Below, in pieces: positions 8,697-52,979 of a stretch of 64,000 bases of DNA. This DNA is from Bacillota bacterium (lineage in GTDB: Bacteria; Bacillota; Clostridia; Christensenellales; WQRI01): NCBI GenBank assembly GCA_009786825.1, contig WQRI01000001.1, forward strand, positions 15,266 to 79,265, read 5' to 3'. Numbering within the stretch: position 1 is the first letter of the stretch; the number at the start of each line of letters is the position of its first letter. Below the pieces are notes generated by a model. That model worked only from the letters and a program-made list of their open reading frames with translations, made no database searches and was not told the DNA's origin. The translations under genes and the position numbers were made by a program.

Positions 8697-8835
8697 AAAT
8701 CTATTCCCCCCGATGTAGTTTCATATTAAATATTTCTTTTCTGTTCCTTCTTTTCTGCCAAAGCCACAACTCACCATTAATGTTCTAAGTTATGTTGAGA
8801 CTGGTCGCTTATCCCTGAACGCTGACCCCTACCCT

Positions 8836-28363: not shown

Positions 28364-31300
28364 TTACTCAATCACTATGTGTATTGTGTGTGTGAATGCC
28401 CCTACAACTACTTCAAGAACTAACTGATTGCCTACGTATAGTCCTGTGCCAAGTGTAACTGTAAGCGTTGCTGTGTCTTCACCTGTATATGCTACAGCTG
28501 TGCTTGCTGGATAACCTGTAACCTCTGGGCTACCAGTTATGCTTGCATCCGTGAAAGACCAAGTGATTGTAGCACCTAACTGTGCGCCTGCTGGAGTTGG
28601 TACAACTGTGAACACTATTGGCGTAGCGTGGTTGGCTGCAACCGTAACAGTTTGAACGCCACCTACTTCTGTAGATGTAAGGCCAGCAGCTTCTACAACT
28701 ATGCCAGTTAGTGCTGGTGGAGCTGTAGGAAGTGCTGCTATTGCTGCAAAGATTATTGCGTTGATTGCACTTGCTGTTGTAAACGTAGCGCCTGTTACTA
28801 CTCTGATTGCTGGTCTCTCGTATGCTGCTGTACCTTCTGCTGTGAAGAAGCCACCTGCCCTTGGTGCATCAGTAGTTGAGTGTGTAGCAAAAGTAGCCCA
28901 CTGTGCAACATCTGCAATGTTCTCGCCTAAGAAAGGCTCGAATGCTGCTGCAATAGTGTTTCCGCTGTTTGCTGCTGAACTACCGATTAGCATTTGAATA
29001 ACGTGACGAGTTCTGGTAGTAGTTATCCACCCGTTTGTTCTTGCGCCCGTGTACTGATTTCTCCAAAGAGTGTCTGGGTTGATTAAGATGTTTACAATGT
29101 AGCCATCTTCGTCTATAACTAGAGTTACTGGTGTTCTACCTGTATTATTCCAGCCACCGAAGTTATTCCAGTCTGCCGCTTCGTTATATGCGCTAACAAA
29201 CCTGTGGTCTGCTACTATTGCTTCTGCCCTTGCTAATAAGTACTCTGCCCACAATAGTGGTAAGAACCTTGCAGTAATTTGTGCTGAATTATCGCCAACT
29301 GCAGTTGAGCCATCTACAACCGCTAGTTGTTGTGCCCAAGTTGCGCTTTCGAACGCTGCTCTTGCTGCTAGTATAAGCGCTCTGTGCTGTATTGCGTTTG
29401 CAAGTGTTATTGTTGGTAAGTTTTCTATTAGATACGTAGCGTGAGCGGCTCTTGTTACAAGTGTAGCGCTTGTTCTTGCTGTGTCTAATGTTGTTCTTGC
29501 TGTGTTTATTTCAGCAACATCTGTTAGTAATAGTGCTGGCTCTGCCGCTGTTATAGCCGCCGCTAGCGCTGATGCGTCCCAAGATGCTGGCGTAACTGTT
29601 GGTTGAAGTGCTTGTGTAGTTGCTATAGATGCTTCTAATAATCTTCTTGCCTCTGCTAGTGTTGTTTCTAGTGCGTTTCTTGCTGCAGTTAGGCTTGCGA
29701 TTACTGGTGCTACTCTGAATGCAACTCTATTTGCCGCTGGTACTTCAGACACCTCAACTGCTGCTGCTCTTGCTGCTACGAAAGGAGTCCACGTTGCAGT
29801 TGTGTTGTAGCCTTGAACAGTTATAGCGTTTGATAGTGCTAATTCTGCCTCTAGTGCCACATTCACCGCTGTTAAAGTGCTGTTAAACGCCGCAATAATA
29901 ACAGCATTGATAGCACTTGCTGTTGTGAAAGTAGCGCCAGTTACTACTGGTATTGCTGGCCTTTGTGTTGCTAGTGCGCCTTGAGCTGTAAACACAGGTG
30001 GTGTTCCGCCCCTAGGAGCATTTGCTTCAGAGTGAGATACAAACACACCAAACTGAGCAACATCTGCAACACTTAAACCTCTAAATACCTCAAACGTAGC
30101 ATCTATTGTTCTGTCTGAGTTTGCAGCCGAACTTCCAATTAACATTTGAAGAACGTGCCTTACTCTGTCTGTAGTTATCCACGCTTGCGTTCTGTCTGCC
30201 TCTGGAAGTTGATTCCACCAAAGACGATTTGGCGTTATTAAAATGTCGTGTATTACACCTGCCTCTGTTACTATTATAGTAACCGGTGTTTGACCAGTTT
30301 GATTCCACACGCCAGCATTGTGACCCGTAGCTTGCATATTATAGCCTGTTATAGTAGTACTACCTGTTGGAGCATCTGCCCTTGCTAAGAAGTACTCTGC
30401 CCACAGTAGCGGTAAGAACCTTGTAGTGATTGCTGCTGCCGCTGCTGTATCTGTTGCAGCATTGTTCGGCATTGCTGTTGCATTTGCCATTACCCAAAGT
30501 TGCTCAGCCCACGTTCCTAGGTTGTCGAAAGCGTACCTTGCTGCTTCTATAGCCGCTCTGTTTTCAACTGCGTTTGCTGCCGTAATGTTTAGTGGACCTA
30601 GTGCTGCAATTAGAGCTAGGGCAAGGCTTTGGTACGTAACAAGAGCATTAGCGCCCTCAACAGCTTGCGCCGTAGTTAATGCACTTGTAAGTGCTGTTCT
30701 TGCTGCGTCTAGTTGCGCCGCTGTTAGCGCATCATTTTCAACCGCAGTTGTTGCAGTTAAAATGTGAGCTGTTATGCCTGAAGCTGTCCAAGAAGCCGCT
30801 GTATGAAGTGCCTCAAGGTTACTAATTCTAAGGATTTCTGCTTGAAGTAGCGCTCTTGCGTGCTCTTCAACTGTTACAAGTGCTTCGTGAGCCGCCCATA
30901 ACGCTTCCATCGCTTGAAGTAATCTGAAAGCTGTTCTGTTGTTGTTTTCTAGTAGTGCGGTTGCTGCTGTTCTTGCATTGTTGAAAGCAGTCCACGTTGC
31001 TGGTGAAAAGTCTGCAGAAGCGTAGTCTTCTACGTCTTCTAATAGCTCTTCCATATATTCTTCTGCTATTTCTAAGAATGTTGCGTTGAATGCTGCGAAA
31101 ATTATTGCGTTAATTGCACTTGCTGTTGTAAACGTAGCGCCACTTACAACTCTAACCGCCATTGTGTTTGTGCCTGTACCAACTGCAACAAAGTGTGAAT
31201 CACTTCTGTGTGCATTTGCTGCGTTGTTAGCGTGAGAACCGAACTTATTAAACTCTGCTACATCTTCGATGTATAAGCCTCTAAATGCTTCGAACGTAGC

Positions 31301-33760
31301 ATCTATTGTTCTGTTACCGAAAGCAGCTGAGCCACCAATGAATAGTTGAACAACGTGTTGCATTCTTGTTGTAGTTACCCAAGAATGGTCTGTGCCTGCT
31401 ACCGGGTCTGTAAACTGATTTCTCCATAAATGAAGTGGGTTGATTAAAATATCGTGTATTACGCCTGCCGGAGTTACTATTATTGTAAGTGGTGTTTGAC
31501 CAGTCTCACCCCACGGAGCTACTGCGTGACCCGTAGCTTGCATATTGTAGCCAGTTATAGTAGTACTACCTGTCGGAGCATCTGCCCTTGCTAAGAAGTA
31601 CTCTGCCCATAAAAGTGGCATAAATCTCTCGGTGAAAGCTGTTGCTTGCGCCGTTGCGCTGTTTCCACTTGGCATTGTTATTGTTATTACCCAAAGTTGC
31701 TGCGCCCACGTTAGGTTATCGAAAGCGTATCTTGCTGCGCGTATATCATCTGCGTTTGCTAGTGCGTTTGCTAGTGTTATAGTAGGTAGGTCTGCGATTA
31801 GACCTAAAGCACGCTCTTGCGCTATAACAACATCTTCCATTGCCTCGTTTAAGCTTGTTAGTGCTGTTGTTAGGCCTGCTGGTGTTCTTGCTGAGTTGAT
31901 TAACATAGCTTCTGCTTCTTGTCTTGCTGTGTTGAATGCAGCCCAACCGCTGAATACATCTACTTCAGCTAGTGGACGAAGTTCTACTAAGCGAGCGCTT
32001 AAAGCATTTTGAGCAACAACAAAAGGAGAAGTTTGTGTAGCAACTATAAAGCCGTTAACAAATGTTGTAGCAGTAATTGTTACGCCCGTGAATGCTGCAA
32101 TATTAACCCCTCTATCTTGAAGTGGTTGTCTGTAAGCAGCACCGTTATCCGCAGGTGTTCCAGTAGCACCTCTGTTTATACCTGTCCCCTCGGTGTTTGC
32201 CGCAATTGGCGTTAATGTTTGAAGAGTAGTAGTAGGAATTGCTAGTAATTGTGCGATTACTGCGCTTACATTTCCTTGAGATGTTGTAGCGTTAACACCT
32301 ATTAACCAATGCCTTGGCCATTGCGTTGAAGTAGTCCATCTACCTGAAATGTCAATCGTTCCCCCGCCCGTGCCTAAGCCTTGAAGTTGTGCGAAGTCCC
32401 AAGAGATTGCTACTGCTGCACCCGTTGTGTTTAAGAATGCTACGTGAACGTTACCCGCTCCGCCTCTGTCTGACTCCCAAGAAGAGTAGCCTGTTATTAT
32501 AGTGTGAGTTGTTGTAGGATGCTCGTATAAGAATATAGAATGCTCTGCTTGTAAGAATGCACCAAACCAAGCCCATATTTCTGCGCTAGGAGCACCAGCA
32601 TTTCCGCTTGGGTCTTCTGTTGGAGATAAAAGCCTTCTTTGTTGCTCCCAAGATAAGTTACCGAAGTAGTATCTGATGTAACCTACATCTTCTATGTCAT
32701 CTGCACTTGGAGTAGCACCGAAAGCACGTAAGTTTACTATTCTGTAAACTACATTTCTGATTTCTAAATCGTGTAGTGCGATGTTGTGTACTGGTGTGTC
32801 GTTTGCTAGTGGGTCTGCGATTATACCCGAGATAGCAATTGTGTTAGCACCTGCAACAAGAGTTGCTGTAAACGTTTGAGCAAGACCAGTTGCTGGTACG
32901 CCAGTTAGTGCTGTTGTGTTATGCGCTACAACTATTGCGTCGTCTATCATAAAGCCTAGTGCTGGAGCAACTGTGAAAGTGAAAGCACCTACTGGTAGCC
33001 TTGCTGGTATTGCTGGCGTTAGTACTGCATTTGCGCCTCCAGTTACTGTTACATCTACAAGCTCTGTTCCGTGATTCCACACAAATACTGTTACTGTTGC
33101 TGTGTGTGTTCCGATAGTTGCTGTAACTGTTGTGTAACCCTCGATTGCTAAAGAGTTAACTTGTACTGTTGCCGTTGCTGTAGTTCCGCTTCTTACTGCT
33201 GTAACTGTTGCTGGAACTGTTGCAACTGTTGGAGCAGAAGACGCTAGAGTCACTATTAGTGGGAACTCGCCTACACCTGTAAGTGTAAGTGTGAATGTAC
33301 CTGTGTTTGGTGTGTTTCCTGTTCCTAGAATTATTTCTAGTGTAGGAACACTTGCTGTAATGTTGCTTACAACACCCGGAACCGCTTCAACTGTGCGTAC
33401 AGCGTACATTGCTGTGTTTACAGTAGAAGTTGCTCTTACTGTGATGTTTCCAACTGCTGTTGCAGATAGAACACCTGCTTCTGTTATAGACGCGCGCTCT
33501 GCTTCAGCTGCGTTTGGTATAGACCACGTAACTGTTTGCGCAGGCTCGTGTTCTCCTTGTACAGTTGCACCAAACGTGATTGTTGTTCCAACGTTAAACT
33601 GATAGTTTGCCGCCGGACCAGTTATGGTTACACCTGTAACTGTTGGAGTTGGGTCTGGCTCGTCGCCATTGTCGTCGCCGTTGCCACAAGCAGCAAGTAC
33701 GAATATCATTGCTGTTGTAAGCGCTAGCGCTAATAGGATTCTAAATAATCTTTTTGACAT
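28364..33760 (-). CDS. giant surface lipoprotein with Ig-like (Big_2-like) domains at both ends and three tandem modules each ending in an FMN_bind-like domain
   Basis: Signal and lipobox MSKRLFRILLALALTTAMIFVLAAC|GNG. There is a Big_2-like segment VTGVTITGP...TVTWSI...VGNITVRATS. Three modules contain ITGYNMQATGH...TIIVT.AGVIHDILI ... VV(S/T)GATFTTASAINA(I/V)I. Confidence 0.75.
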   Translation of the reverse strand: MSKRLFRILLALALTTAMIFVLAACGNGDDNGDEPDPTPTVTGVTITGPAANYQFNVGTTITFGATVQGEHEPAQTVTWSIPNAAEAERASITEAGVLSATAVGNITVRATSTVNTAMYAVRTVEAVPGVVSNITASVPTLEIILGTGNTPNTGTFTLTLTGVGEFPLIVTLASSAPTVATVPATVTAVRSGTTATATVQVNSLAIEGYTTVTATIGTHTATVTVFVWNHGTELVDVTVTGGANAVLTPAIPARLPVGAFTFTVAPALGFMIDDAIVVAHNTTALTGVPATGLAQTFTATLVAGANTIAISGIIADPLANDTPVHNIALHDLEIRNVVYRIVNLRAFGATPSADDIEDVGYIRYYFGNLSWEQQRRLLSPTEDPSGNAGAPSAEIWAWFGAFLQAEHSIFLYEHPTTTHTIITGYSSWESDRGGAGNVHVAFLNTTGAAVAISWDFAQLQGLGTGGGTIDISGRWTTSTQWPRHWLIGVNATTSQGNVSAVIAQLLAIPTTTLQTLTPIAANTEGTGINRGATGTPADNGAAYRQPLQDRGVNIAAFTGVTITATTFVNGFIVATQTSPFVVAQNALSARLVELRPLAEVDVFSGWAAFNTARQEAEAMLINSARTPAGLTTALTSLNEAMEDVVIAQERALGLIADLPTITLANALANADDIRAARYAFDNLTWAQQLWVITITMPSGNSATAQATAFTERFMPLLWAEYFLARADAPTGSTTITGYNMQATGHAVAPWGETGQTPLTIIVTPAGVIHDILINPLHLWRNQFTDPVAGTDHSWVTTTRMQHVVQLFIGGSAAFGNRTIDATFEAFRGLYIEDVAEFNKFGSHANNAANAHRSDSHFVAVGTGTNTMAVRVVSGATFTTASAINAIIFAAFNATFLEIAEEYMEELLEDVEDYASADFSPATWTAFNNARTAATALLENNNRTAFRLLQAMEALWAAHEALVTVEEHARALLQAEILRISNLEALHTAASWTASGITAHILTATTAVENDALTAAQLDAARTALTSALTTAQAVEGANALVTYQSLALALIAALGPLNITAANAVENRAAIEAARYAFDNLGTWAEQLWVMANATAMPNNAATDTAAAAAITTRFLPLLWAEYFLARADAPTGSTTITGYNMQATGHNAGVWNQTGQTPVTIIVTEAGVIHDILITPNRLWWNQLPEADRTQAWITTDRVRHVLQMLIGSSAANSDRTIDATFEVFRGLSVADVAQFGVFVSHSEANAPRGGTPPVFTAQGALATQRPAIPVVTGATFTTASAINAVIIAAFNSTLTAVNVALEAELALSNAITVQGYNTTATWTPFVAARAAAVEVSEVPAANRVAFRVAPVIASLTAARNALETTLAEARRLLEASIATTQALQPTVTPASWDASALAAAITAAEPALLLTDVAEINTARTTLDTARTSATLVTRAAHATYLIENLPTITLANAIQHRALILAARAAFESATWAQQLAVVDGSTAVGDNSAQITARFLPLLWAEYLLARAEAIVADHRFVSAYNEAADWNNFGGWNNTGRTPVTLVIDEDGYIVNILINPDTLWRNQYTGARTNGWITTTRTRHVIQMLIGSSAANSGNTIAAAFEPFLGENIADVAQWATFATHSTTDAPRAGGFFTAEGTAAYERPAIRVVTGATFTTASAINAIIFAAIAALPTAPPALTGIVVEAAGLTSTEVGGVQTVTVAANHATPIVFTVVPTPAGAQLGATITWSFTDASITGSPEVTGYPASTAVAYTGEDTATLTVTLGTGLYVGNQLVLEVVVGAFTHTIHIVIE
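28745..32000. repeat. three tandem intragenic repeats of about 1.15-1.2 kb inside the lipoprotein gene
   Basis: Long near-identical stretches, e.g. 30320-30420 vs 31526-31625 (GTGACCCGTAGCTTGCATATT.TAGCC.GTTATAGTAGTACTACCTGT.GGAGCATCTGCCCTTGCTAAGAAGTACTCTGCCCA). The SGAT-coding blocks lie near 28790, 29935 and 31140. Confidence 0.8.
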
Positions 33761-34163
33761 TTAGTTTTTCCCTCCTTAAATAAATTTGTTTTTTAATGAT
33801 TAGGTTTCACCTAATCAGCGGTCAGGTTTCAGCGTTCAGGGATGAGGTTTTGGGGTTTTGTAACCTTTGGCTCATCGCTGGTTGCTGTTTGCTGGTCGCT
33901 GAATTTGGCGTTCCCGCCGAATTCGACGGGGTGGTTATTTTTGCCTTGTGGGCTTTTTTATGTAACCCACAAGGGCTACTGGTTTGTTGTTGTATAAATG
34001 TTTACTGGTATTTAGGTTATTGCCACAAATTTGTGCTTTTATAACTATTGCCCCGAATATGCACAAAGTTTTTTGTACATACACAAAGTCTTACTTTTTT
34101 AGCAACTAAAAAAGGGCAGACCTGTATCAGTATACAACTATACAGTAACATTTTACATTAAAA

Positions 34164-34197: not shown

Positions 34198-34380
34198 GGA
34201 ATATGAACGGGGTGTTAAAATTGTTAAAATTGCCCGTTGGGCAATTTCAGGGATGAGCGGAGAGCGAACAGGGACGAGTTTTTGGGTTCTCGGGCATAGG
34301 TGGCTTGCATTGAACTTTTGTTTTTGGTTTTTATACTGCCTCTTCCGCTCGGTGAGCGAACAGGGATGAGTTCTTGGGTC

Positions 34381-34746
34381 TTACAACTGCTCGTTTAGTT
34401 TCTTGATTATTGAAATAAGCATTTTTCTTGTTTCTTCTAGCAACGATATACTTTTTTCAACTTCTTTGTTTTTTAGCAAGCCCAAATTCACGCACGCTAG
34501 AATTTGTGTTTCTAGTTCGTATGCTGAACCTCTTGCAACTGATAAAAACTGCCTATACTCTTTAGGCGAGTTTCTGCCCCAGCCTTCTGCTATGTTTGAT
34601 GGGATAGACAGTGCAGAGCGTTGCATTTGGTTTGCTAGAATGTATTTTTGTTCTGGTGGCAGAAGGTTGCATATTTTATAGACTTCTGTTAGAAGGTCCA
34701 TAGATTTTTGCCACACGATAAGTTCTTTAAAACTTTTTATTTTCAT
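34381..34746 (-). CDS. four-helix-bundle protein (23S rRNA intervening-sequence protein family)
   Basis: FKELIVWQKSMDL..EVYK....LP..E.Y.L..QMQRSALSIPSNIAEGWGR.S.KEY.QFL.VARGSAYELETQ. Confidence 0.85.
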   Translation of the reverse strand: MKIKSFKELIVWQKSMDLLTEVYKICNLLPPEQKYILANQMQRSALSIPSNIAEGWGRNSPKEYRQFLSVARGSAYELETQILACVNLGLLKNKEVEKSISLLEETRKMLISIIKKLNEQL

Positions 34747-34877
34747 AATGCTTTTGTTGAGGGATGAGCGGCGAGCGAACAGCGATGAGTTTTTGGCTTT
34801 TGCGTTTTAGCGCTTAAGTCTTTTGCTCGGGTTTAGTTTCGCTGAAGTCTGGTCTCTGGTCGCTGAACCCTGAACGC

Positions 34878-35144
34878 TTAAAATAGGTCTGAGTGTGTGC
34901 CGACCGCCATAAAGTAGATAGCGTTGTCGTCTATATCCCAAACTAGCAGTAAGTCGTTTGATACGTGGCACTCCCATAGCCCTTTATAGTTTCCTTTTAG
35001 TTTGTGTGGTCTGTGAACCTTATCTAAAGGCACTTGGTTTGCCAACTTGTCCATAATCTCTTCTAGTTTTGTAAGGTCTACGCCTCTTTTAACTAGCCTT
35101 TTTAAGTCTCTTTTGAAATTGTTGGTCTGTACAACATTTAGCAT
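34878..35144 (-). CDS. yafQ: type II toxin, YafQ family mRNA interferase
   Basis: FKRDLKRLVKRGVDLTKL ... HKLKGNYKGLWECHVSNDLLLVW ... GTHSDLF. Start moved to MLNVVQ, 1 nt after the dinJ stop. Confidence 0.85.
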   Translation of the reverse strand: MLNVVQTNNFKRDLKRLVKRGVDLTKLEEIMDKLANQVPLDKVHRPHKLKGNYKGLWECHVSNDLLLVWDIDDNAIYFMAVGTHSDLF

Positions 35145-35145
35145 A

Positions 35146-35421
35146 TTAGTCCTCCATAGCCTCTGCAAAAATTGCTTCTATGGTTGTATAGTTCTTTGGG
35201 ATTTTGCCCGCTTTCATTAACTCGACTTCTCGCCTTGCGCTTAGAATGTCGGACTTAGGCTCTAGCGTAACCGGGAACGGCAAGCCTTTGTGTATTGTAA
35301 CTTGCCTTAAAAATACATTTACTGCCTCGCCGGTAGACAGCCCAAGTTGTTTAAGAACACTATCCGCTTCTTTTTTTAGGTCTGGGGATAGCCTAATGTG
35401 TAGTACTTCACTTTTTGCCAT
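35146..35421 (-). CDS. dinJ: type II antitoxin, RelB/DinJ family
   Basis: IRLSPDLKKEADSVLKQLGLSTGEAVNVFLRQVTIHKGLPFPV. Confidence 0.85.
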   Translation of the reverse strand: MAKSEVLHIRLSPDLKKEADSVLKQLGLSTGEAVNVFLRQVTIHKGLPFPVTLEPKSDILSARREVELMKAGKIPKNYTTIEAIFAEAMED

Positions 35422-35451
35422 AAATTTACCTCCGCTTTAATAGCATATGTA

Positions 35452-35481
35452 ATTGTATCACATTTAGTATACATTTGTCAA
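35452..35481 (-). promoter_or_regulatory. candidate promoter of dinJ-yafQ
   Basis: The minus strand reads TTGACA-18 nt-TACAAT with a TG extension, followed by the SD GCGGAGGT. Confidence 0.5.
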
Positions 35482-35608
35482 ACATTTTGCATAAAGTTTT
35501 TTATGGTTGCTCGAACTGGCTTGGTCGCTGAAACCTGAACGCTTATCCCTAAACCCTGAGCGCTGGTCGCTGGTCGTTGCTAAATTGTTCGCCTATCGGG
35601 TGAACAAA

Positions 35609-36838
35609 TTAGCCCGGGGCTTTGAAGTTGTAGAGTACTCTTAGGCGGCGGGTGATTTCGGCGGTTGGGGGGATGTGGGCGGTGATTTCGTTTAGGGGTT
35701 TGTAGGCGAATGGGGCTTCATCTAGGGTAGAGCGTTTGATTGTTGTTGAGTGAATGCCTTGCATTGCCTTTTGGAAGTCTTCCATTTTTAAGTTTTTTAG
35801 GGCGGCGGTACGGCTCATTATTCTGCCCGCGCCGTGTGGGGCTGAGTTGTTCCAGTCTGGGTTTCCTTTGCCTACTGCTATAATGCTTCCGTCTCGCATA
35901 TTGAATGGGATAAGCACTTGCTCGCCTTTATGGGCTGAGATTGCGCCTTTGCGCAGTATCATATCGCGCGGGTCTATAAAGTTATGTACTGTTGTAAAAC
36001 TTTCTGCCGCCTGAAGCCCTACGCGGCGCGTTATATCTTCTACAATTGCACGGCGGTTTATTGCCGCGTACTCTTGTAGGATTGTCATATCGTGAATGTA
36101 GTCGTTGAACCCCTCGCCAATTAAAAACTCTAGCCCGCTGTCTATTCGATAGTCTGCTTTTAGAGTTTTGCGCGTTTGGTGAAGTTGCTTTACCGCAAGG
36201 CGCTGATAATACTCGCACGTTTTGTGACCAATATTACGCGAGCCGGAATGAACCACTAAGTAGATATCGCCACACGATGTGCCGTTACCTTTTTCATCTG
36301 CCTCACACCCGCACGGCATTTTGCCAACAAGCCCTGAGAGTGTACCGCCTGCTGTCTTTGGTTTTGTAGCATCACAGCGGTTAAGTTCTATGAAGTGGTT
36401 GCCGCCGCCTAGCGTACCCATAGATAAAACTGCCCTGTCTATCGCTTTGCTGCCTAGTATTTTGGCAATTTTAAGTTTGTTTAGGCTTGCTTTTTCTATG
36501 TATGGGTGTGGGGCTTTTCGCACGTTATGGCCACTCGGTATGTTTCTGTGAATCTCGCGGTCTAGTTTTTCTAGGTCTATATCTTTTTGTTTTAAGCGGA
36601 CAGTTTCCATTCCGCAGCCGATGTCTACGCCTACCATATTTGGCACGACCTTATCTTTTACTGTGATTGTTGTGCCTATTGTAGAGCCGGCGCCCGCGTG
36701 AGTGTCTGGCATTATTCTGATTGTTGCGCCCTGAACAAACCCTTGCTCTAGTAGGGTTTTGATTTGTTCCATTGTTTTTTCTTCTACTTTGTCTGTGAAA
36801 ATTTTTGCTGTGCCGTATGTTCCTTTAACTTCTATCAT
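35609..36838 (-). CDS. rtcB: RNA-splicing ligase RtcB
   Basis: MPDTHAGAGSTIG, GGGNHFIE, VHSGSRNIGH, TVHNFI and APHGAGR motifs. There is a Cys-containing insertion (GKMPCGCEADEKGNGTSCG). Confidence 0.9.
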   Translation of the reverse strand: MIEVKGTYGTAKIFTDKVEEKTMEQIKTLLEQGFVQGATIRIMPDTHAGAGSTIGTTITVKDKVVPNMVGVDIGCGMETVRLKQKDIDLEKLDREIHRNIPSGHNVRKAPHPYIEKASLNKLKIAKILGSKAIDRAVLSMGTLGGGNHFIELNRCDATKPKTAGGTLSGLVGKMPCGCEADEKGNGTSCGDIYLVVHSGSRNIGHKTCEYYQRLAVKQLHQTRKTLKADYRIDSGLEFLIGEGFNDYIHDMTILQEYAAINRRAIVEDITRRVGLQAAESFTTVHNFIDPRDMILRKGAISAHKGEQVLIPFNMRDGSIIAVGKGNPDWNNSAPHGAGRIMSRTAALKNLKMEDFQKAMQGIHSTTIKRSTLDEAPFAYKPLNEITAHIPPTAEITRRLRVLYNFKAPG

Positions 36839-37207: not shown

Positions 37208-39223
37208 TTAAGACGCTTCCTCTGAGAACTGGCTTTGGTGCAGGCGGGCGTAGTAGCCACCTTTTGCTAGAAGTTGGTTATGGTTGCCTTGTTCTACAAT
37301 GTCGCCGTTGTTTACTACTAGTATTATGTCGGCACTTCTGATTGTGCTTAGGCGGTGGGCAATTACAAATGATGTTCTGCCGCGGGATAGGCTTTGCAGG
37401 GCTTGTTTTATGCTGACTTCTGTGCGCGTGTCTACGCTTGATGTTGCTTCATCTAGTATTATGATTGCGGGGTTGGCTAAAAACACCCTTGCTATTGTAA
37501 GAAGTTGTTTTTGACCGGCAGAGATGTTTGTTGCATCTTCGTTTAGTATTGTGTTGTAGCCATCTGGCATTTTTTCTATGAAGTAGTGGGCTTGGGCTTT
37601 TGTTGCGGCTTTTATAATTTCTTCGTCTGTTGCATCTTCTTTGCCGTAGGCTATGTTGTCGCGTATGCTTCCGTTGAACAGCCACGTGTCTTGCAAAACC
37701 ATACCGAAGCACTTGCGAAGTGTGTAGTGGTCTAGCGTTGAGATGTCTGTGCCATCTAGCGTTATTTTACCGCTGTTAATCTCGTAAAAGCGCATAAGCA
37801 AGTTTACGATTGTGGTTTTGCCAGCACCCGTTGGTCCGACAATTGCTATGGTCTGACCCGCTTTTGCCGTTAGGTTCATATTGTTTATTATAATTTTTTC
37901 TGGCTCGTAGCCGAATGTTACGTTGTTGAATTCTATGTCGCCTTTTATACTTGAGGGTTCAGCGAACAGCGATGAGCGATGAGGTTTTTGGGTTTCTTTA
38001 TTAATTGCGGTCTCCGTTTCAATCTGACCGCTGGTCGCTTCCCGCTGGTCGCTCTTATACTGTTCGCTGGTCGCTGACCGCTGGTCGCTGACAACGTCCG
38101 CTATCTCTTCTTCATCTAGTATCTCAAACACGCGCTCGGCGCTTGCTATTGTGCTTTGTATTACGCCGATTATTTGTGCGGCTTGCGAAATTGGCATTCC
38201 TAGCGTGCGTACGTACTGTACAGACGCTTGAATATCACCCGCGCTTATTCTGCCCGCGCGCAAGTGTATTGCGCCCACAACAACTACAAGCACGTATGTC
38301 ACGTTGGATAAAAAGCGCATAAGGGGCATTATAAGGGCTGTTAAAAACTGGGCGCGCTTGGACGCATCGTATAAGTCTGCGTTTATATTATCGAATTGCT
38401 CTATCGCTTTTTGCTCGTACGAGAATGCTTTTACTACTGTGTGAGAGCCGTACATCTCTTCTATGTGTGCGTTGATTTGACCCGTGTGCATTGCGCTTCG
38501 CTTGAATTGTTTTTGGCTACGCTTTGCTATAAAAGCGGTTGCTAAAAGGGAGATGGGTATGCTTCCAACAACAATTAGCGCAAGCAACCAATGAATTGTA
38601 AACATCATTATTACAGAGCCTACAACTTGTATTACTGCAGAAATTACTTGCAGTAGGGTTTGTTGAAGCGTTGTGCTTATTGTGTCTATGTCGTTGGTCA
38701 TTCGGCTTAGGGTTTCGCCGTAACTGTTTTTGTCGTAGAATTTTAGCGGGACGCGGTCTAGTTTTTGCTTCATCTCGCGGCGCATTCTGAATACTATGCG
38801 CTGAGCCACGCCCGATATTAAAAAAGAGGCGATGTACGATATTATAGAACTTGATGTGTAGAGTATGCCCGCAATTACTAGTAGGCGCACAACGTTTTGT
38901 AGGGTTGATAGCCCTTCCGCCATTAAGAATATATTTGTGGTTGCCTCGCCTGAGATGCGCGGACCAACTATCCAAACGCCCGTGCCGACTATTGTTATAA
39001 AAATTACAAAAGCCAATAGATAAGCCTCGCGCCCCATATATGTTGTGAGACGGCGGAATGTGCCTTTAAAATCTTTTGCCTTTTGCGCAAAGCCCATACC
39101 CGCACGACCAAAGCCCCTAGGTTGCGCTTGCCCCGCCTTTTGTTGCTGGCGGACAAGGTCTAGGTCTTTTTGGTCTTGAGTGTTTTCAGGTTTGCCCTGC
39201 TTGTTGTTTTTATTTTTGCTCAT
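37208..39223 (-). CDS. ABC exporter, fused permease/ATPase (heterodimer partner 2) with an element-derived insertion in the TMD-NBD linker
   Basis: Six-TM exporter fold. Walker A GPTGAGKTT, signature ISAGQKQ, Walker B IIILDEATS. There is no N-terminal C39 peptidase domain. Confidence 0.88.
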   Translation of the reverse strand: MSKNKNNKQGKPENTQDQKDLDLVRQQQKAGQAQPRGFGRAGMGFAQKAKDFKGTFRRLTTYMGREAYLLAFVIFITIVGTGVWIVGPRISGEATTNIFLMAEGLSTLQNVVRLLVIAGILYTSSSIISYIASFLISGVAQRIVFRMRREMKQKLDRVPLKFYDKNSYGETLSRMTNDIDTISTTLQQTLLQVISAVIQVVGSVIMMFTIHWLLALIVVGSIPISLLATAFIAKRSQKQFKRSAMHTGQINAHIEEMYGSHTVVKAFSYEQKAIEQFDNINADLYDASKRAQFLTALIMPLMRFLSNVTYVLVVVVGAIHLRAGRISAGDIQASVQYVRTLGMPISQAAQIIGVIQSTIASAERVFEILDEEEIADVVSDQRSATSEQYKSDQREATSGQIETETAINKETQKPHRSSLFAEPSSIKGDIEFNNVTFGYEPEKIIINNMNLTAKAGQTIAIVGPTGAGKTTIVNLLMRFYEINSGKITLDGTDISTLDHYTLRKCFGMVLQDTWLFNGSIRDNIAYGKEDATDEEIIKAATKAQAHYFIEKMPDGYNTILNEDATNISAGQKQLLTIARVFLANPAIIILDEATSSVDTRTEVSIKQALQSLSRGRTSFVIAHRLSTIRSADIILVVNNGDIVEQGNHNQLLAKGGYYARLHQSQFSEEAS
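37955..38100. repeat. intergenic-type repeat element read through in frame inside the ABC exporter gene
   Basis: GGGTTCAGCGAACAGCGATGAGCGATGAGGTTTTTGGGTT...CTGACCGCTGGTCGCT...CTGTTCGCTGGTCGCTGACCGCTGGTCGCTGAC. The same words occur as in the intergenic copies at 33810-33900, 34230-34380 and 34750-34877 (e.g. GAGCGAACAGCGATGAGTTTTTGGCTT). Confidence 0.75.
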
Positions 39224-39237
39224 AGTTTTATTTTTTG

Positions 39238-39394
39238 AATGTACAAATTACAATGTACAATGTACAAATGTTTCACCGCTAGCGCGGGCAATATTTTGCG
39301 TTTGCAAATGCTCTAAAAATCATAACGCAGACTGTTCAAACGCTTTGCAATTAACGAATTTAACATTTGTAATTTGTACACTGTAATTTGTAAT
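39238..39394. repeat. intergenic hairpin element, TGTACAAATTACAA flavour, canonical core
   Basis: AATGTACAAATTACAATGTACAATGTACAAAT - GTTTCACCGCTAGCGCGGGCAATATT ... GACTGTTCAAACGCTTTGCA - ACATTTGTAATTTGTACACTGTAATTTGTAATTT. Confidence 0.85.
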
Positions 39395-39398
39395 TTGG

Positions 39399-41150
39399 CT
39401 AGTTCTCTTGTGAGTTTACTATCTCTCTATACACGCTACAACTCTGAAGTAATTGCTCGTTCGTGCCTTGTGAGACTATTTGCCCTTCTTCTAGTACTAT
39501 AATGTTATCTGCTTCTTTTATTGTGGATACGCGCTGGGCTACTATTATTGTGATTGCTTCTTTGCCCGCCTCTCTCTTTGTGGTTTCTGTTTTTAAGTTT
39601 GCGCGTACTTGGGCGTCTGTTGTGTAGTCTAGCGCCGAGAAAGTGTCGTCAAACAAGTATATGCTGGGGCTTCCTACAACTGCGCGCGCTATGCTTAGCC
39701 TTTGCTTTTGCCCACCGCTAAAGTTTTTGCCGCCTTGCGCAACCGGTGCATCTAAGCCTTTTTCTAGCGCGAACTCTGCACTAGCAACATCTAGCGCGTG
39801 TAAAATTTCGCTCTCCGATGCATCTGCCTTACCTACTAAAATGTTGCTTACTATATCACCCTTAAACAGCATTGCTTTTTGAGATGTATAGCCAATTTGG
39901 CTTCTGTAGTCTTTCACGTTAAACTCGCGTATGTTTGTGCCACTTACGCTTATGCTTCCGCTGTCTATATTGTAAAAGCGCATAAGTATATTTGCTAGGG
40001 TTGTTTTTCCGCTTCCGGTCGGACCAATTATTGCTGTGGTTTGCCCCGCGTGCGCGCTAAAACTTATATCTCTAAGGGCTGGTTTGCTTGCGCGCGGATA
40101 TGTAAACGTAACATTTTCAAACACAAGCGTGCCACCGCATAACTCGCCCCGCCCTAAAGGCTTACCGCCGTTGTCGTTAATTTCTGGCTGTATTTTTAAA
40201 ATCTCGTTTATTCTGTTTGCGCTGGCTTGAGAGCGCGGCCATTGTATAAACAGCATAGTGAACATCATAAACGCGAACATAATCTGCATAGAGTACTGGA
40301 ACACGGCGAATACGCGCGCTAGTTCTGCGCGTGAGATTGTCTCGCCCGCATCTACTTGACCTTGTGTTGTGTGCGCCGTTAAAAATATAATGCCTAGTTG
40401 CATTCCAAACATCACAAGCATTGCGACGGGGTTTGTTATGCTGGCTATTCTGTTAACCCTAAGGGTTGTGCGCGTTAGGTTTACGTTGCTCTCGTGAAAG
40501 CGCTGTTGCTCTCTGGCTTGTCTGTTAAAGGCGCGTGTTACGCGTACGCCCGTAAGCCCTTCGCGCGCGACAAGTGTCAGTTTATCTAAGCGCTTTTGAA
40601 TGCGGTTGTACATCGGGAATACCACAAACATAACTGCCGCAACAATCAGTAGCATTATGCCTAGCGCGCCACCTATAACTAGCATATAGTCGCCGCCAAA
40701 CTCGCTTGCGTATATTATACCAAAAACAAAGGTGATAGGGGCGGAAGCCATTGTTGTAAACATCAGCACAAAAAACTGTTGCACTTGCTGAACATCGTTT
40801 GTTGTGCGCGTAATTAGGCTTGCCGTGCCTACTTCATCAAACTCTTTTAGCGAAAAACCCTCTACTTTTTCGAAAACCCTTTTGCGTAAGTTTCTAGAAA
40901 AGCCCACCGCCATTCTAGAAGCAAAAAACGCAACAAACACATTCGCAACAATCGCGCCAAACGCAAGCCCAAACATCCACCCGCCGCGCTCTATAATTTG
41001 CGCAACGCTCTCGTATTCTGTTGCGCCTATTGTTGCCGCCATTCTGCGCGGAAGTTCTAAGTCTAGAAGTGCCGCCGCCGCAACGAAAATAAGTGTCAGC
41101 AACGCTAACACTATTAAACGCGGGGTGAAGATTTTTAAAAGTTTGAACAT
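39399..41150 (-). CDS. ABC exporter, fused permease/ATPase (heterodimer partner 1)
   Basis: Walker A GPTGSGKTT, signature FSGGQKQ, Walker B IYLFDDTFS (a degenerate D instead of E, typical of heterodimeric exporters). Confidence 0.88.
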   Translation of the reverse strand: MFKLLKIFTPRLIVLALLTLIFVAAAALLDLELPRRMAATIGATEYESVAQIIERGGWMFGLAFGAIVANVFVAFFASRMAVGFSRNLRKRVFEKVEGFSLKEFDEVGTASLITRTTNDVQQVQQFFVLMFTTMASAPITFVFGIIYASEFGGDYMLVIGGALGIMLLIVAAVMFVVFPMYNRIQKRLDKLTLVAREGLTGVRVTRAFNRQAREQQRFHESNVNLTRTTLRVNRIASITNPVAMLVMFGMQLGIIFLTAHTTQGQVDAGETISRAELARVFAVFQYSMQIMFAFMMFTMLFIQWPRSQASANRINEILKIQPEINDNGGKPLGRGELCGGTLVFENVTFTYPRASKPALRDISFSAHAGQTTAIIGPTGSGKTTLANILMRFYNIDSGSISVSGTNIREFNVKDYRSQIGYTSQKAMLFKGDIVSNILVGKADASESEILHALDVASAEFALEKGLDAPVAQGGKNFSGGQKQRLSIARAVVGSPSIYLFDDTFSALDYTTDAQVRANLKTETTKREAGKEAITIIVAQRVSTIKEADNIIVLEEGQIVSQGTNEQLLQSCSVYREIVNSQEN

Positions 41151-41155
41151 ACTTG

Positions 41156-41216
41156 ATTAATTATGAATTCGGAATTATGAATTATGAATTGTTGCACACT
41201 AGCGCGGGCAAAGTTT
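41156..41216. repeat. half hairpin element, ATTATGAATT flavour
   Basis: ATTAATTATGAATTCGGAATTATGAATTATGAATT - GTTGCACACTAGCGCGGGCAAAGTTT. No matching right arm was seen. Confidence 0.6.
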
Positions 41217-41435
41217 GTTTTGGTCTACTTTATGTAGTTTTGGTTTCACGTGATTGCTTTTGGTTTCCTTAAATAATTTGATTTCTCTTAATTTTATCAC
41301 ATAACCCGCCGTAAGTCAATAATTTGACACTAAAATAATATGCCAAATTGCTTGACTAAATTGTGAAAATATTGTAAACTATTATGTAGGGGGTATACAA
41401 ATTTTTTCGCCTGCCATACTGTCAATGCTCTTGCA

Positions 41436-41622: not shown

Positions 41623-42366
41623 ATGTTTATTGATTTAATAATTGTCGCGGTAATTATTTTGAGCGCTCTGGTTGGTTTTGCCAGAGGTTTTTTGCCTTCC
41701 ATTATGTCTCTTTTTGGGTGGGCTGCTTCTTTAATTATTGCTGTTTGGCTTGGTGGTAGATTTATAGATTTACTAGATAGTTTTTTTGATGTTAGAGAAA
41801 TGGTTTCTGAGGCTTTTATCACGCGTCTTGAGAGTATGAACCCCACGCTTTTTGCACAGCCACCAACAGAAGAAAACATTATTCAGGGGCTTTACGAGTT
41901 TGGGCTACCGGGCTTTATAAATAACTTGCTTGTGCCGGTTTTGTACCCGGGCGACCCGACTGTTGATATAGCGCTATCTCACTTGTTAGGACCAGCACTA
42001 GCAAACATTGTTTTGCGCGTTTTAAGTATGCTTATTTTGTTTACGCTTTTAAGTGTTTTAACCACCCTTTTAAATATGGGCGTAAACAGTTTATTACTAG
42101 ACAGAGATGGCGAGCGCAAAACGCTTGGGCAAGTAGACCGCGCCGTTGGCGTGCTGTTTGGTATTGGGCGCGGAATTGTTATGGTTGTTGCGGGCTTCTT
42201 TATACTAATAATAGCGCTATCTCTTCCGTTTGGTGCCGAGTTCGGTCATAACATAGAGCCGTCTCTAGACCAATCGTTCATCGCCCGCCACGTACTCTAC
42301 AACCTATACGACCAAATAATACAAATGCTAGACCTAGAAAATATTCTTACCAATGTTCAATTTTAG
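41623..42366 (+). CDS. cvpA: CvpA-family membrane protein
   Basis: MFIDLIIVAVIILSALVGFARGFLPSIMSLFGWAASLIIAVWLG is a typical CvpA N-terminus. Start moved to the internal Met. Confidence 0.75.
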   Translation: MFIDLIIVAVIILSALVGFARGFLPSIMSLFGWAASLIIAVWLGGRFIDLLDSFFDVREMVSEAFITRLESMNPTLFAQPPTEENIIQGLYEFGLPGFINNLLVPVLYPGDPTVDIALSHLLGPALANIVLRVLSMLILFTLLSVLTTLLNMGVNSLLLDRDGERKTLGQVDRAVGVLFGIGRGIVMVVAGFFILIIALSLPFGAEFGHNIEPSLDQSFIARHVLYNLYDQIIQMLDLENILTNVQF

Positions 42367-42497
42367 AATGGTAAATGTTAAATTGTTTCACCGCTAGCGC
42401 TGGCAATTTGATTGAAGTTGGAAAACGCAGACTGTTCAAAGGCAATATATATAATTGTGCTTCGCCATTAAAAATTTAAAATTTACCATTAAACATT
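42367..42497. repeat. intergenic hairpin element, TAAATGTTAAAT flavour, canonical core
   Basis: AATGGTAAATGTTAAATT - GTTTCACCGCTAGCGCTGGCAATTTG ... GACTGTTCAAAGGC - CCATTAAAAATTTAAAATTTACCATTAAACATT. Confidence 0.8.
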
Positions 42498-42525
42498 AAA
42501 AAAAGTGGCAATGCCACTTTTTTTA
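42498..42525. terminator. bidirectional terminator between cvpA and potD
   Basis: AAAAAAGTGGC-AAT-GCCACTTTTTT. Confidence 0.75.
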
Positions 42526-48611: not shown

Positions 48612-48633
48612 AAAATTATTTAGATAATTTTTT

Positions 48634-48771: not shown

Positions 48772-48773
48772 CT

Positions 48774-52963: not shown

Positions 52964-52979
52964 TGTTTCACGTGAAACA
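52964..52979. promoter_or_regulatory. parS site (perfect) immediately downstream of parB
   Basis: TGTTTCACGTGAAACA. Confidence 0.85.

What the first reader, a model, noticed from the sequence alone, without database searches (positions are those of the whole stretch)
37955..38100. An intergenic-type repeat element is read through in frame inside an essential-looking ABC exporter gene
The linker between the permease and ATPase domains contains an extra segment of about 45 aa (ADVVSDQRSATSEQYKSDQREATSGQIETETAINKETQKPHRSSLFAEPSS). Its DNA consists of the same words as the intergenic elements 3 kb away (GTTCAGCGAACAGCGATGAGCGATGAGGTTTTTGGGTT ... CTGTTCGCTGGTCGCTGACCGCTGGTCGCTGAC). It has partially complementary halves (CAGCGAACAG and CTGTTCGCTG). 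The ORF stays open across it. This looks like a repeat insertion tolerated, or exapted, as a protein linker, and it gives direct evidence that these elements are or were mobile.
Basis: seen in the sequence. Interest (0 to 1): 0.65.

Follow-up and report, generated by a model that had tools for sequence, protein, structure and literature searches.

The report
Hairpin repeat translated as exporter linker
A 144-bp hairpin-type repeat, of the kind that flanks small 'intervening-sequence' (S23p/PF05635) genes, sits in frame inside an ABC exporter gene of an uncultured Firmicute and is read through as about 39 extra disordered residues between the membrane and ATPase domains, a real case of selfish DNA becoming protein sequence.

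Summary
ORF 37208-39223(-) is an intact 671-aa ABC exporter half-transporter. Its TMD-NBD connector is 39 aa longer than in 103 of 119 orthologues, and the extra DNA (37951-38094) is a diverged member of a local repeat family. A profile built only from the intergenic copies finds its two arms at E=2e-6 and 4e-4. Phased SAGSG/CSCTS heptamer runs number 7 against 0.04 expected. The element has two inverted arrays of phased heptamers around a loop, is open in the gene's frame, and is modelled as disordered. Copies A and C, outside genes, have stops in all six frames. The connector tolerates insertions in general: about six other lineages carry unrelated inserts there, and the three examined are not hairpins.

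The same arm and junction directly follow the stop codon of the neighbouring PF05635 (23S-rRNA IVS protein, S23p) gene. In other phyla, 15 of 21 PF05635 genes have adjacent heptamer arrays (0.59 against 0.016 arrays per kb). Six complete cassettes lie inside methylase or DnaE genes with the host frame open right through them.

The linker is therefore most likely an ORF-less derivative of an IVS-type selfish element. How it moves is unknown. 'Essential' and 'exapted' are not supported.

The parts
37208..39223 (-). ABC exporter half-transporter (671 aa, TMD+NBD) carrying the insert. It has the canonical Walker B Glu592 and switch His623.
   Evidence: ORF and translation; Pfam; exact protein on record as a MAG Firmicutes ABC transporter; PDB relatives (8wcw_B, TM288, BmrD).
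37951..38094 (-). The inserted hairpin element (144 bp = 48 codons; net +39 aa relative to the modal orthologue connector), translated as VSDQRSATSEQYKSDQREATSGQIETETAINKETQKPHRSSLFAEPS.
   Evidence: Alignment A1; connector lengths; frames; RNA fold z=-3.1; AF2 pLDDT<50 for residues 376-424.
37951..37984 (+). Arm 1: phased heptamers TTGAGGG TTCAGCG AACAGCG ATGAGCG ATGAGG. This is the 3' arm in gene sense.
   Evidence: leave-one-out nhmmer E=2.1e-6.
37985..37995 (+). Conserved junction TTTTTGGGTTT, shared by all left arms. In copy B2 it lies between the arm and the PF05635 stop codon.
   Evidence: Alignment A2; pattern search; sequence.
37996..38023 (+). Loop, not repeated, containing a small internal hairpin GCGGTCTCCGTTTCAATCTGACCGC.
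   Evidence: no significant similarity to the cassette interior.
38024..38094 (+). Arm 2: about ten phased heptamers (CTGACCG CTGGTCG CTTCCCG CTGGTCG CTCTTATA CTGTTCG CTGGTCG CTGACCG CTGGTCG CTGACAA). It looks like two 35/36-nt blocks and gives the 12-aa peptide repeat SDQRSATSEQYK/SDQREATSGQIE.
   Evidence: TRF period 7 and 14; repeat family D2; nhmmer E=3.9e-4.
33812..33905 (.). Intergenic copy A: the best-preserved hairpin of the family.
   Evidence: Fold z=-8.5 (minus strand) and -5.7 (plus strand); alignment.
34246..34380 (.). Copies B1 (34246-34292) and B2 (34338-34380): arm-plus-junction halves. B2 abuts the stop codon of the PF05635 gene.
34381..34746 (-). PF05635 (23S_rRNA_IVP / S23p four-helix-bundle) gene bounded by the GC-type arms.
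   Evidence: Pfam E=3e-37; homologues.
34757..34883 (.). Intergenic copy C: a complete but degraded hairpin, and the closest relative of the linker's arm 1.
   Evidence: (36/45 identical).
35514..35592 (.). Copy D: arm-2-type arrays between rtcB and relB.
8797..8830 (.). Isolated partial arm (CTGGTCG CTTATCC CTGAACG CTGACCC) outside the cluster.
   Evidence: nhmmer E=0.0014; sequence.
39399..41150 (-). Partner ABC half-transporter (583 aa) with degenerate-site residues (Walker B Asp, switch Gln).

Best explanation
The extra 144 bp is a copy, without its own ORF, of a hairpin repeat whose two arms are inverted arrays of phased 7-nt units: (nnSAGSG)n, then TTTTTGGG, a loop, then (CSCTSnn)n. It belongs to the family that bounds the neighbouring PF05635 (S23p, '23S rRNA intervening-sequence protein') gene, so it is most likely a gene-less derivative of an IVS-type selfish cassette. 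A copy landed in the TMD-NBD connector of the exporter subunit, either by an unknown transposition-like step or by recombination with the cluster 3 kb away. That connector is a surface junction that tolerates insertions. The copy survived because its length is a multiple of three and the gene's frame through it has no stop codon. Ribosomes read straight through it, adding about 39 net residues of hydrophilic, disordered linker (S/E/A/Q/T-rich). The RNA stem has decayed, so there is no terminator and only a weak target for double-strand RNases. Shown: the insertion relative to orthologues, family membership, the open frame, the disorder prediction, and the general association of heptamer arms with PF05635 genes, including read-through when such cassettes lie in genes. 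Inferred: derivation from the PF05635 cassette, the way it moved, and neutrality of the insert.
For: Insertion: connector 101 aa against a modal 62 in 103/119 orthologues; alignment A1; 8 against 50 residues relative to 8wcw_B. Family membership: z=7.6 local alignment; 7 phased runs against 0.04 expected; leave-one-out nhmmer E=2e-6 and 4e-4; same order of arm, junction, loop and arm as copies A and C. Hairpin: RNA fold z=-3.1, with 0/200 shuffles as stable, against z=-8.5 for intergenic copy A. Filtering for an open frame: the genic copy is open in 2 of 3 sense frames, while A and C have stops in all 6 frames. Tolerance: AF2 pLDDT<50 for 376-424 with TMD and NBD modelled; 10/119 orthologues have unrelated connector inserts, and three examined are not hairpins (z +0.6, -0.6, +1.9). 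No terminator-like site. Link to PF05635: arm plus junction directly follows the PF05635 stop codon at 34381. PF05635 genes in Bacteroidota, Gracilibacteraceae, Thermodesulfovibrio and 17 distinct viral-contig loci carry inverted heptamer arms: 15/21 by a strict threshold, 0.594 against 0.016 arrays per kb. Those loci also hold ORF-less hairpins of the same unit. Six gene-embedded cassettes keep the host frame open (0 stops) while 0 of 26 alternative frames are open in 13 intergenic cassettes. Literature: the Coxiella 23S IVS has strain-variable tandem heptamers next to its S23p ORF and is cut by RNase III at the first repeat (PMC4990558).
Against: No close relative exists (next best orthologue is 53-56% identical), so neither an empty site nor the age of the insertion can be shown. 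There is no unambiguous target-site duplication: TTATACT occurs at 37945 and 38055, but at background frequency in the window. No transposase, integrase or reverse transcriptase is present in 64 kb. The loops of the solo copies show no significant similarity to the cassette interior (p=0.24 and 0.49) and no PF05635 coding remnants, so derivation from the cassette rests on the arms and the 10-nt junction only. Apart from one partial arm at 8.8 kb, every GC-type copy lies within 4.3 kb, which fits local copying as well as it fits transposition. The rest of the genome could not be searched: pattern scans of the two public collections returned only chance-level hits.
Confidence: 0.72

Rival explanations
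1. The segment was copied into the gene by ectopic recombination, gene conversion or template switching with the repeat cluster 3 kb away, not by a dedicated mobility mechanism. The element family is not autonomously mobile.
For: Apart from one partial arm, all GC-type copies lie between 33.8 and 38.1 kb. No transposase or integrase is in the window. No clear target-site duplication. The closest paralogue (C) is only 80% identical over 45 nt.
Against: The host connector shows no homology to the element that could seed recombination. The whole architecture (arm, junction, loop, arm) was transferred as a unit. Related cassettes occupy unrelated genes in other phyla, which implies some means of moving to new sites. 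Only 64 kb of the genome was visible.
Confidence: 0.2
2. The linker arose in place by slippage-driven expansion of a short heptamer microsatellite or a low-complexity tract, and resembles the intergenic elements only by convergence.
For: The connector expands independently in about six other lineages. One of those inserts is a tandem-repeat expansion (15-nt unit). Arm 2 contains a perfect 14-nt tandem duplication. Heptamer unit numbers vary between strains in related cassettes (PMC4990558).
Against: The non-repetitive junction GATGAGGTTTTTGGGTTT and the order and inverted polarity of both arms match the intergenic copies. A 7-nt unit cannot expand in frame except in steps of 21 nt. The other lineages' inserts show no period 7 and no hairpin.
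Confidence: 0.05
3. The insert has been exapted. Either the longer flexible connector tunes coupling between the TMD and the NBD, or the mRNA stem serves as a regulatory site (RNase III cleavage or ribosome pausing) that controls exporter level.
For: Residual stem with z=-3.1. RNase III is known to cut IVS stems at the heptamer repeats (PMC4990558). The frame is kept open and the gene is otherwise intact, with all catalytic motifs.
Against: The stem is much weaker than in intergenic copy A. The peptide is low-complexity and predicted disordered. No conservation can be assessed because no relative carries it. Unrelated inserts at the same junction suggest simple tolerance.
Confidence: 0.1
4. 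The gene is a decaying pseudogene or the segment is an assembly chimera, so the read-through is meaningless.
For: The genome is a MAG. The start codon lacks an obvious Shine-Dalgarno sequence because an AT-rich element abuts it.
Against: The sequence is identical in independent ENA and Logan assemblies. The ORF is full length, with 56% identity to orthologues and all invariant ABC motifs. The partner gene is intact.
Confidence: 0.02

Closest known systems
23S rRNA intervening sequences (IVS) carrying an S23p/PF05635 ORF (Leptospira, Coxiella, Brucella, Xanthomonas)
   Same: A stem formed by inverted flanks encloses a PF05635 ORF. Coxiella has tandem heptameric repeats (GACAGAT, 2-3 units, variable between strains) next to the ORF, the element is regarded as selfish and horizontally acquired, and RNase III cuts at the first repeat (PMC4990558). 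The window's PF05635 gene and 15/21 PF05635 genes sampled elsewhere show the same heptamer-arm architecture.
   Different: The linker copy has no ORF, lies in a protein-coding gene rather than helix 25/45 of 23S rRNA, and is translated rather than excised (as far as sequence can tell). The arms are longer (5 and 10 units) and G+C-rich. RNase III processing was not tested here.
Rickettsia palindromic elements (RPE)
   Same: Palindromic repeats of about 150 bp, inserted in frame into unrelated protein-coding genes and read through as extra peptide, at positions judged compatible with the protein fold (review PMC10969869). The size and the outcome are the same here.
   Different: There is no sequence relationship and the phylum differs. 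RPE arms are not phased heptamer arrays and have no link to PF05635. RPEs inserted dozens of times per genome, whereas only one genic copy is seen here in 64 kb.
MITEs, REP/BIME and REPIN elements
   Same: Short non-coding repeats with inverted ends and hairpin potential, mostly intergenic, thought to derive from or depend on a coding partner.
   Different: No transposase or RAYT partner was found, there are no defined TIR/TSD boundaries and no GTAG/CGTC head motif. The arms are built from 7-nt units whose sequence differs between lineages while the architecture is kept.
Tandem heptanucleotide repeats of cyanobacteria (STRR) and Beggiatoaceae (TAACTGA)
   Same: Intergenic arrays with a 7-nt period (PMC4692102 and PMC4679880, found; STRR from my own knowledge).
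   Different: Those are described mainly as direct arrays. Pairing as inverted arms around a PF05635 ORF, and insertion in genes, is not described in those papers as far as I read. Homology was not tested.
Borg tandem repeats that create intrinsically disordered regions
   Same: Repeat DNA inside ORFs adds new disordered protein segments (PMC9879509).
   Different: The Borg repeats are direct, codon-phased tandem repeats that arise in place, not an inserted inverted-repeat element.
Heterodimeric type IV ABC exporters with one degenerate ATP site (TM287/288, BmrCD)
   Same: The host gene pair: TM288 E=3.5e-133 and BmrD E=1.5e-87. The partner has Walker B Asp and switch Gln, and the insert-bearing subunit has Glu and His.
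   Different: The connector is 39 aa longer. In orthologous loci the two genes overlap by 4 nt; here they are separated by 175 bp.

Membership tests
Local GC-type heptamer-arm hairpin family (copies A, B1, B2, C, D) | Arm of phased nnSAGSG units followed by the junction GAYGAG(G)TTTTTGG | tested here: met
   Alignment; pattern 3 hits against 0.00 expected; nhmmer leave-one-out E=2.1e-6.
Local GC-type heptamer-arm hairpin family (copies A, B1, B2, C, D) | Second arm of the inverse units (CSCTSnn)n on the same strand, giving a hairpin | tested here: met
   TRF period 7; nhmmer E=3.9e-4; fold z=-3.1 and -2.4. The stem is weaker than in copy A.
IVS-type PF05635 (S23p) cassette | Inverted flanking arms made of tandem heptamers | tested here: met
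   Linker arms. The same feature is found at 15/21 PF05635 genes, and in Coxiella (PMC4990558).
IVS-type PF05635 (S23p) cassette | PF05635 ORF between the arms | tested here: not met
   The loop is 28-40 nt. hmmsearch of six-frame translations gives E>2. No significant similarity to the cassette interior. At most it is an ORF-less derivative, not a full member.
IVS-type PF05635 (S23p) cassette | Excision of the stem-loop from the transcript by RNase III | not testable with these tools
   Needs RNA-seq or RACE in this organism, or an in-vitro RNase III assay.
IVS-type PF05635 (S23p) cassette | Location in 23S rRNA helix 25 or 45 | tested here: not met
   The element lies in an ABC exporter ORF. 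No rRNA is present in the window (Rfam).
MITE | Terminal inverted repeats | tested here: met
   The two arms are inverted arrays.
MITE | Target-site duplication | tested here: inconclusive
   TTATACT occurs at 37945 and 38055, and next to B2 at 34331, but the motif is at background frequency (17 against 14 expected), and the second copy lies inside arm 2.
MITE | Cognate autonomous element encoding a transposase | tested here: not met
   No transposase, integrase or reverse transcriptase in 64 kb. The only associated gene is PF05635. The rest of the genome was not available.
Rickettsia palindromic element (RPE) | Palindromic repeat of about 150 bp inserted in frame in a protein-coding gene and translated | tested here: met
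   144 bp, open frame, intact flanking domains. This is a functional analogy only.
Rickettsia palindromic element (RPE) | Sequence homology to one of the RPE families; Rickettsiales host | not tested
   No RPE sequences were compared. The host is a spore-forming Firmicute (YabP/YabQ neighbours), so membership is not claimed.
REP/BIME with RAYT | 20-40 bp palindrome with a GTAG/CGTC head and an associated Y1 transposase | tested here: not met
   The architecture is different and there is no Y1 transposase.
Integron attC site / gene cassette | RYYYAAC...GTTRRRY core sites and an IntI integrase | tested here: not met
   No such cores at the element ends and no integrase in the window.
Intrinsic terminator | GC-rich stem followed by a U-run on the transcribed strand | tested here: not met
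   No terminator-like site in 37951-38094 on either strand.
Known Rfam RNA family | Match at the gathering threshold | tested here: not met
   Only two tRNAs were found in the window.
Type IV (ABCB-like) heterodimeric ABC exporter (the host gene) | ABC_membrane plus ABC_tran in one chain, a paired partner gene, and one degenerate site | tested here: met
   Pfam; PDB hits; motifs read.

The most novel reading that the evidence does not exclude
PF05635/S23p 'intervening sequences' are not an rRNA curiosity. They form a broad class of selfish cassettes defined by inverted arrays of phased heptamers. They colonise intergenic spacers, rRNA and protein-coding genes across phyla. When they lie in a gene, the host frame is kept open through the whole cassette, so the PF05635 ORF overlaps a host-protein insert in another frame. 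They also spawn ORF-less hairpin derivatives, one of which is the translated ABC linker here. The AT-rich heptamer hairpins that fill most intergenic spacers of this genome may be further derivatives.
Probability: 0.4. Interest if true: 0.8.

Novelty: new variant of a known kind. Interest (0 to 1): 0.62.

Why it matters
In-frame insertion of palindromic repeats into genes has been a textbook oddity of Rickettsia. This is a clear case in a free-living, spore-forming Firmicute, at a defined structural position: the TMD-NBD connector of an ABC exporter. It shows how selfish DNA can add disordered linker sequence to a conserved machine. More broadly, following it led to a simple sequence signature, inverted period-7 arrays, that ties the linker to the poorly understood S23p/PF05635 'intervening sequence' genes. 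It also led to complete cassettes embedded in DNA methylase and DnaE genes with the host frame preserved. If that holds in a systematic survey, several questions become testable: what PF05635 proteins do outside diversity-generating retroelements, how IVS elements move, and why their arms are built from 7-nt units.

Tried and rejected
1. Integron attC/cassette reading of the 33.8-35.6 kb cluster (small TA and PF05635 genes between hairpins): rejected, because there are no RYYYAAC/GTTRRRY cores and no integrase.

2. Known RNA family: Rfam at the gathering threshold finds only two tRNAs.

3. Intrinsic terminator inside the gene: none found.

4. Finding the rest of the genome or relatives by DNA pattern. 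The genome-contig scan gave 13 hits against roughly 9 expected by my own estimate and the metagenome-contig scan gave 10 hits. All are single and from unrelated taxa.

5. Strain variation: L001 and L002 are 100% identical to the window, the protein cluster has a single member, and no empty-site allele was found.

6. My first idea that the L008/L010 Bacteroidales hairpins would sit next to PF05635 genes: they do not. They lie downstream of ordinary genes.

7. Target-site duplication TTATACT: inconclusive.

8. Residual homology of the solo-hairpin loops to the PF05635 cassette interior: not significant. PF05635 coding remnants in solo elements or AT-rich cores: none.

9. The first control for the heptamer/PF05635 association was flawed, because other ORF boundaries in the same loci were contaminated by extra arrays. 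It was replaced by unrelated loci.

10. Homology between this insert and other lineages' connector inserts: only a weak, composition-driven match to P0009 (23.5 bits), with no DNA similarity and a different repeat structure.

11. PF05635 paralogues from the same genome, as a route to more loci: none among the top hits.
Full report

Yes. ORF 37208-39223 on the minus strand encodes 671 aa with an ABC_membrane domain (71-344) and an ABC_tran domain (447-595). The exact protein is already on record from a 'Firmicutes bacterium' MAG. The same DNA was assembled independently in ENA and Logan data, 100% identical over 22 kb and 7.7 kb, so it is not an assembly artefact. Neighbouring YabP/YabQ genes indicate a spore-forming Firmicute.

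**2. Anatomy of the segment**

On the plus strand, 37951-38094 reads as follows:
- Five phased heptamers (TTGAGGG TTCAGCG AACAGCG ATGAGCG ATGAGG).
- The motif TTTTTGGGTTT.
- A 28-nt loop.
- About ten heptamers of the inverse type (CTGACCG CTGGTCG ... CTGGTCG CTGACAA).

Copies with the same layout lie at 33812-33905 (A) and 34757-34883 (C). Half copies lie at 34246-34292 (B1), 34338-34380 (B2) and 35514-35592 (D), and a stray partial arm lies at 8797-8830.

**3. Is the similarity more than chance?**

- Phase-7 runs of SAGSG/CSCTS: 7 in the window against 0.04 in Markov shuffles.
- GCTGGTCGCTGAC with up to 2 mismatches: 7 hits against 0.65 expected.
- The arm-junction pattern: 3 hits against 0.00 expected.
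- Local alignment of the left 50 nt against the window with the gene masked: score 43 against 25.9+-2.3 for dinucleotide shuffles, best hit copy C, 36/45 identical.
- A profile built only from the intergenic copies finds the linker's arm 1 at E=2.1e-6 and arm 2 at E=3.9e-4. These are the best hits outside the training copies.

The element folds better than shuffles (RNA of the gene strand -46.7 kcal/mol, z=-3.1) but far less well than copy A (z=-8.5). It is a degraded hairpin.

**4. Is it an insertion?**

Among the 120 best homologues the next best is only 53-56% identical, so there is no close relative. Across 119 of them, the distance from the AERVF motif at the end of the TMD to Walker A is 62 residues in 103 proteins and 101 in this one, a net gain of 39 aa. 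Against the best solved relative (8wcw_B) the connector is 50 residues rather than 8.

Ten of the 119, from about six lineages, also have long connectors. Their sequences are unrelated. At the DNA level the three I fetched show no excess folding (z=+0.6, -0.6, +1.9), no period 7 and no paralogues nearby, and one is a codon-phased 15-nt tandem repeat.

So the junction is generally permissive, and only this insert is a hairpin repeat. AF2 models the TMD and NBD with reasonable confidence (mean pLDDT 73.6) but gives pLDDT below 50 for residues 376-424.

**5. Signs of filtering**

In the gene's orientation the genic copy is stop-free in two of three frames, whereas intergenic copies A and C have stops in all six frames. 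There is no terminator-like site in the element. Of 25 strong period-7 arrays in the window, only the two in this gene lie inside a long ORF.

**6. The host gene**

The 671-aa subunit has the canonical Walker B Glu and switch His. The upstream 583-aa partner has Asp and Gln at those positions. This is therefore a heterodimeric exporter with one degenerate ATP site, like TM287/288 and BmrCD. Nothing indicates essentiality.

**7. What kind of element is it?**

The GC-type copies surround a PF05635 gene (23S_rRNA_IVP, the S23p four-helix-bundle family; 34381-34746, E=3e-37) and a RelB/YafQ pair. Copy B2, an arm plus the junction, starts 10 nt after the PF05635 stop codon.

I therefore looked at PF05635 genes elsewhere:
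- In Bacteroidota contigs the gene lies between (nAGGCAA)n and (TTGCCTn)n arrays, whose unit number differs between samples (3-8 and 3-10 units).
- In a Gracilibacteraceae MAG the arms are (nnCAGTG)n/(CACTGnn)n, and in Thermodesulfovibrio they are (GGGGATA)n/(TATCCCC)n.
- A scan of viral contigs with a PF05635 alignment gave 23 loci, almost all with inverted period-7 arms whose units are specific to each lineage. One locus has period 8.

Quantified, strong period-7 arrays occur at 0.594 per kb in 96 kb of PF05635 loci against 0.016 per kb in 182 kb of unrelated loci, and 15 of 21 PF05635 ORFs have one directly adjacent. My first control was invalid because those loci also contain extra arrays and ORF-less hairpins of the same unit. 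That is itself evidence that gene-less derivatives are common.

The literature holds one precedent. The Coxiella 23S IVS has two or three tandem GACAGAT heptamers next to its S23p ORF, the number varies between strains, and RNase III cuts at the first repeat (PMC4990558). I found no paper that generalises this. The library is limited to open-access text.

**8. Cassettes inside genes**

Six of the 19 complete cassettes I examined lie inside protein-coding genes. Four are in Eco57I/MmeI-type (PglX-like) methylases, one in a DUF1156 methylase, and one in DNA polymerase III alpha, between the NTPase and finger domains.

In all six, the frame one position before the PF05635 frame has no stop across the whole ORF and is continuous with the host ORF. 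It is open for 0.5-2.5 kb upstream and for 83-1,565 nt downstream, the shortest being limited by the contig end. In the 13 intergenic cassettes none of the 26 alternative frames is open; each carries 1-16 stops.

The host proteins would thus carry a hydrophilic insert of about 120-140 aa. The four methylase cases share one site and are not independent, so this amounts to three or four events. Read-through of this element class in genes is therefore not peculiar to the ABC exporter.

**9. Best explanation**

The linker is an ORF-less copy of an IVS-type heptamer-arm element that entered a permissive surface connector and survived because it is in frame and stop-free. It is now translated as a disordered extension.

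- Shown: the insertion, family membership, the open frame, and the class-level association.
- Inferred: derivation from the PF05635 cassette, the mechanism of movement, and neutrality. The derivation rests on the shared arm and 10-nt junction only. Loop similarity to the cassette interior is not significant and there are no coding remnants.

No transposase, integrase or reverse transcriptase lies in the window. No convincing target-site duplication was found.

**10. Rivals**

- Local recombination with the cluster 3 kb away is compatible with the clustering and is not excluded.
- In-situ microsatellite growth is unlikely given the conserved non-repeat junction and the paired polarity of the arms.
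- Exaptation is untested and has no positive evidence.
- Pseudogene or artefact is contradicted by the intact motifs and the independent assemblies.

**11. Comparison with known systems**

In outcome it works like a Rickettsia palindromic element: about 150 bp, in frame, translated (PMC10969869). In architecture it resembles the S23p IVS. It is not a full member of either. It lacks the ORF and the rRNA location of an IVS, and it has no tested homology to RPEs. It also fails the MITE, REP and attC criteria that could be tested.

**12. Verdict**

I rate it a new variant of a known kind. Interest is moderate to high, mainly because the finding opens a testable link between heptamer-arm hairpins, PF05635 genes and read-through insertions in proteins.

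Noticed in passing
window 3325-3492, 7380-7530, 9702-9900, 10335-10445, 15805-15990, 18165-18320, 19858-20020, 23028-23205, 25485-25620, 39232-39402, 41150-41300, 42355-42510, 48625-48780, 50640-50765, 52970-53150: A second, AT-rich family of heptamer-arm hairpins (arms such as AATGTTA/TAACATT, AGTGTAA/TTACACT, GTACAAA/TTTGTAC) fills most intergenic spacers between housekeeping genes. Several copies share the core TTTCACCGCTAGCGCGGGCAAT ... CTGTTCAAACG, and the elements occur in both orientations. Unit sequences differ between copies while the two arms of each copy stay complementary. No Rfam match and no PF05635 coding remnant.
   Followed up: partly
window 39224-39398: The two ABC exporter genes overlap by 4 nt in three orthologous loci (L026, L027, L062). 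Here they are separated by 175 bp, which is filled entirely by an AT-rich heptamer hairpin, so the downstream gene has no visible Shine-Dalgarno sequence. This looks like an element inserted between translationally coupled genes.
   Followed up: partly
L037 2-2989; L039 331-3444; L040 79-1614; L041 1-3438; L038 919-1884; L050 574-4410: Complete PF05635 cassettes with heptamer (L050: octamer) arms lie inside PglX-like methylase, DUF1156 and DNA pol III alpha genes. The host frame has zero stops through the whole cassette, so the PF05635 ORF overlaps a host-protein insert in another frame. In 13 intergenic cassettes, 0 of 26 alternative frames are open.
   Followed up: yes
L028-L036 (Bacteroidota contigs), around the PF05635 gene (in L028: 2893-3000 and 3363-3440): The number of heptamer units in the arms differs between samples for the same gene (3-8 units upstream, 3-10 downstream). 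The upstream array begins at the stop codon of the preceding gene.
   Followed up: partly
L037 about 1150-1650 (host aa 396-498): The same PglX-like ORF also carries an in-frame DUF559 (endonuclease-like) insertion, bounded by repeated peptide-coding units (PLPWRGAAERRGG... / HPAASRHPSKGGEL x2). This is a second kind of selfish insert read through in the same gene.
   Followed up: no
L008 5714-5880; L010 4200-4335: Bacteroidales loci found by chance have ORF-less heptamer-arm hairpins ((nnnnGAG)n, a T-run, then (CTCnnnn)n) just downstream of ordinary genes, one between convergent genes, with no PF05635 gene nearby.
   Followed up: partly
window 34246-35592: In gene orientation the order is: D (plus-type arm), relB-yafQ, hairpin C, PF05635 gene, B2 and B1 (minus-type arms). 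The outer arms could pair and enclose the toxin-antitoxin pair and the PF05635 gene as one composite cassette. An RtcB RNA ligase gene (35609-36838) lies immediately upstream.
   Followed up: no
window 37945-37951, 38055-38061, 34331-34337: TTATACT occurs at the outer edge of arm 1, inside arm 2 and next to copy B2. That is 3 of its 10 plus-strand occurrences, although the motif as a whole is at background frequency. It could be an element terminus, a target motif or chance.
   Followed up: partly
window 7519-9776: Four adjacent paralogous small or medium ORFs share an N-terminal motif (L[IV][LV]P.[SG]G...E.(Q)YIEGG) that resembles a double-glycine leader. One has collagen-like GPQ repeats. 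Those I scanned (7519-8244 and 9318-9776) have no Pfam match.
   Followed up: no
window 28364-33760 and 3485-7213: Two very large ORFs (1798 and 1242 aa) have no Pfam match. The first contains internal direct repeats spaced 1206 nt apart (30201-30439 against 31407-31645, 77-85% identical).
   Followed up: no
window 53285-53576: A tRNA-Ile(GAT) and tRNA-Ala(TGC) pair, the usual rRNA-spacer tRNAs, with no rRNA gene detected anywhere in the window.
   Followed up: no
window 61400-63200: A purine-rich, strongly AT-skewed region with many imperfect tandem repeats (periods 9-30 and 90 nt, AAG/GAA-rich) at the right end of the window.
   Followed up: no
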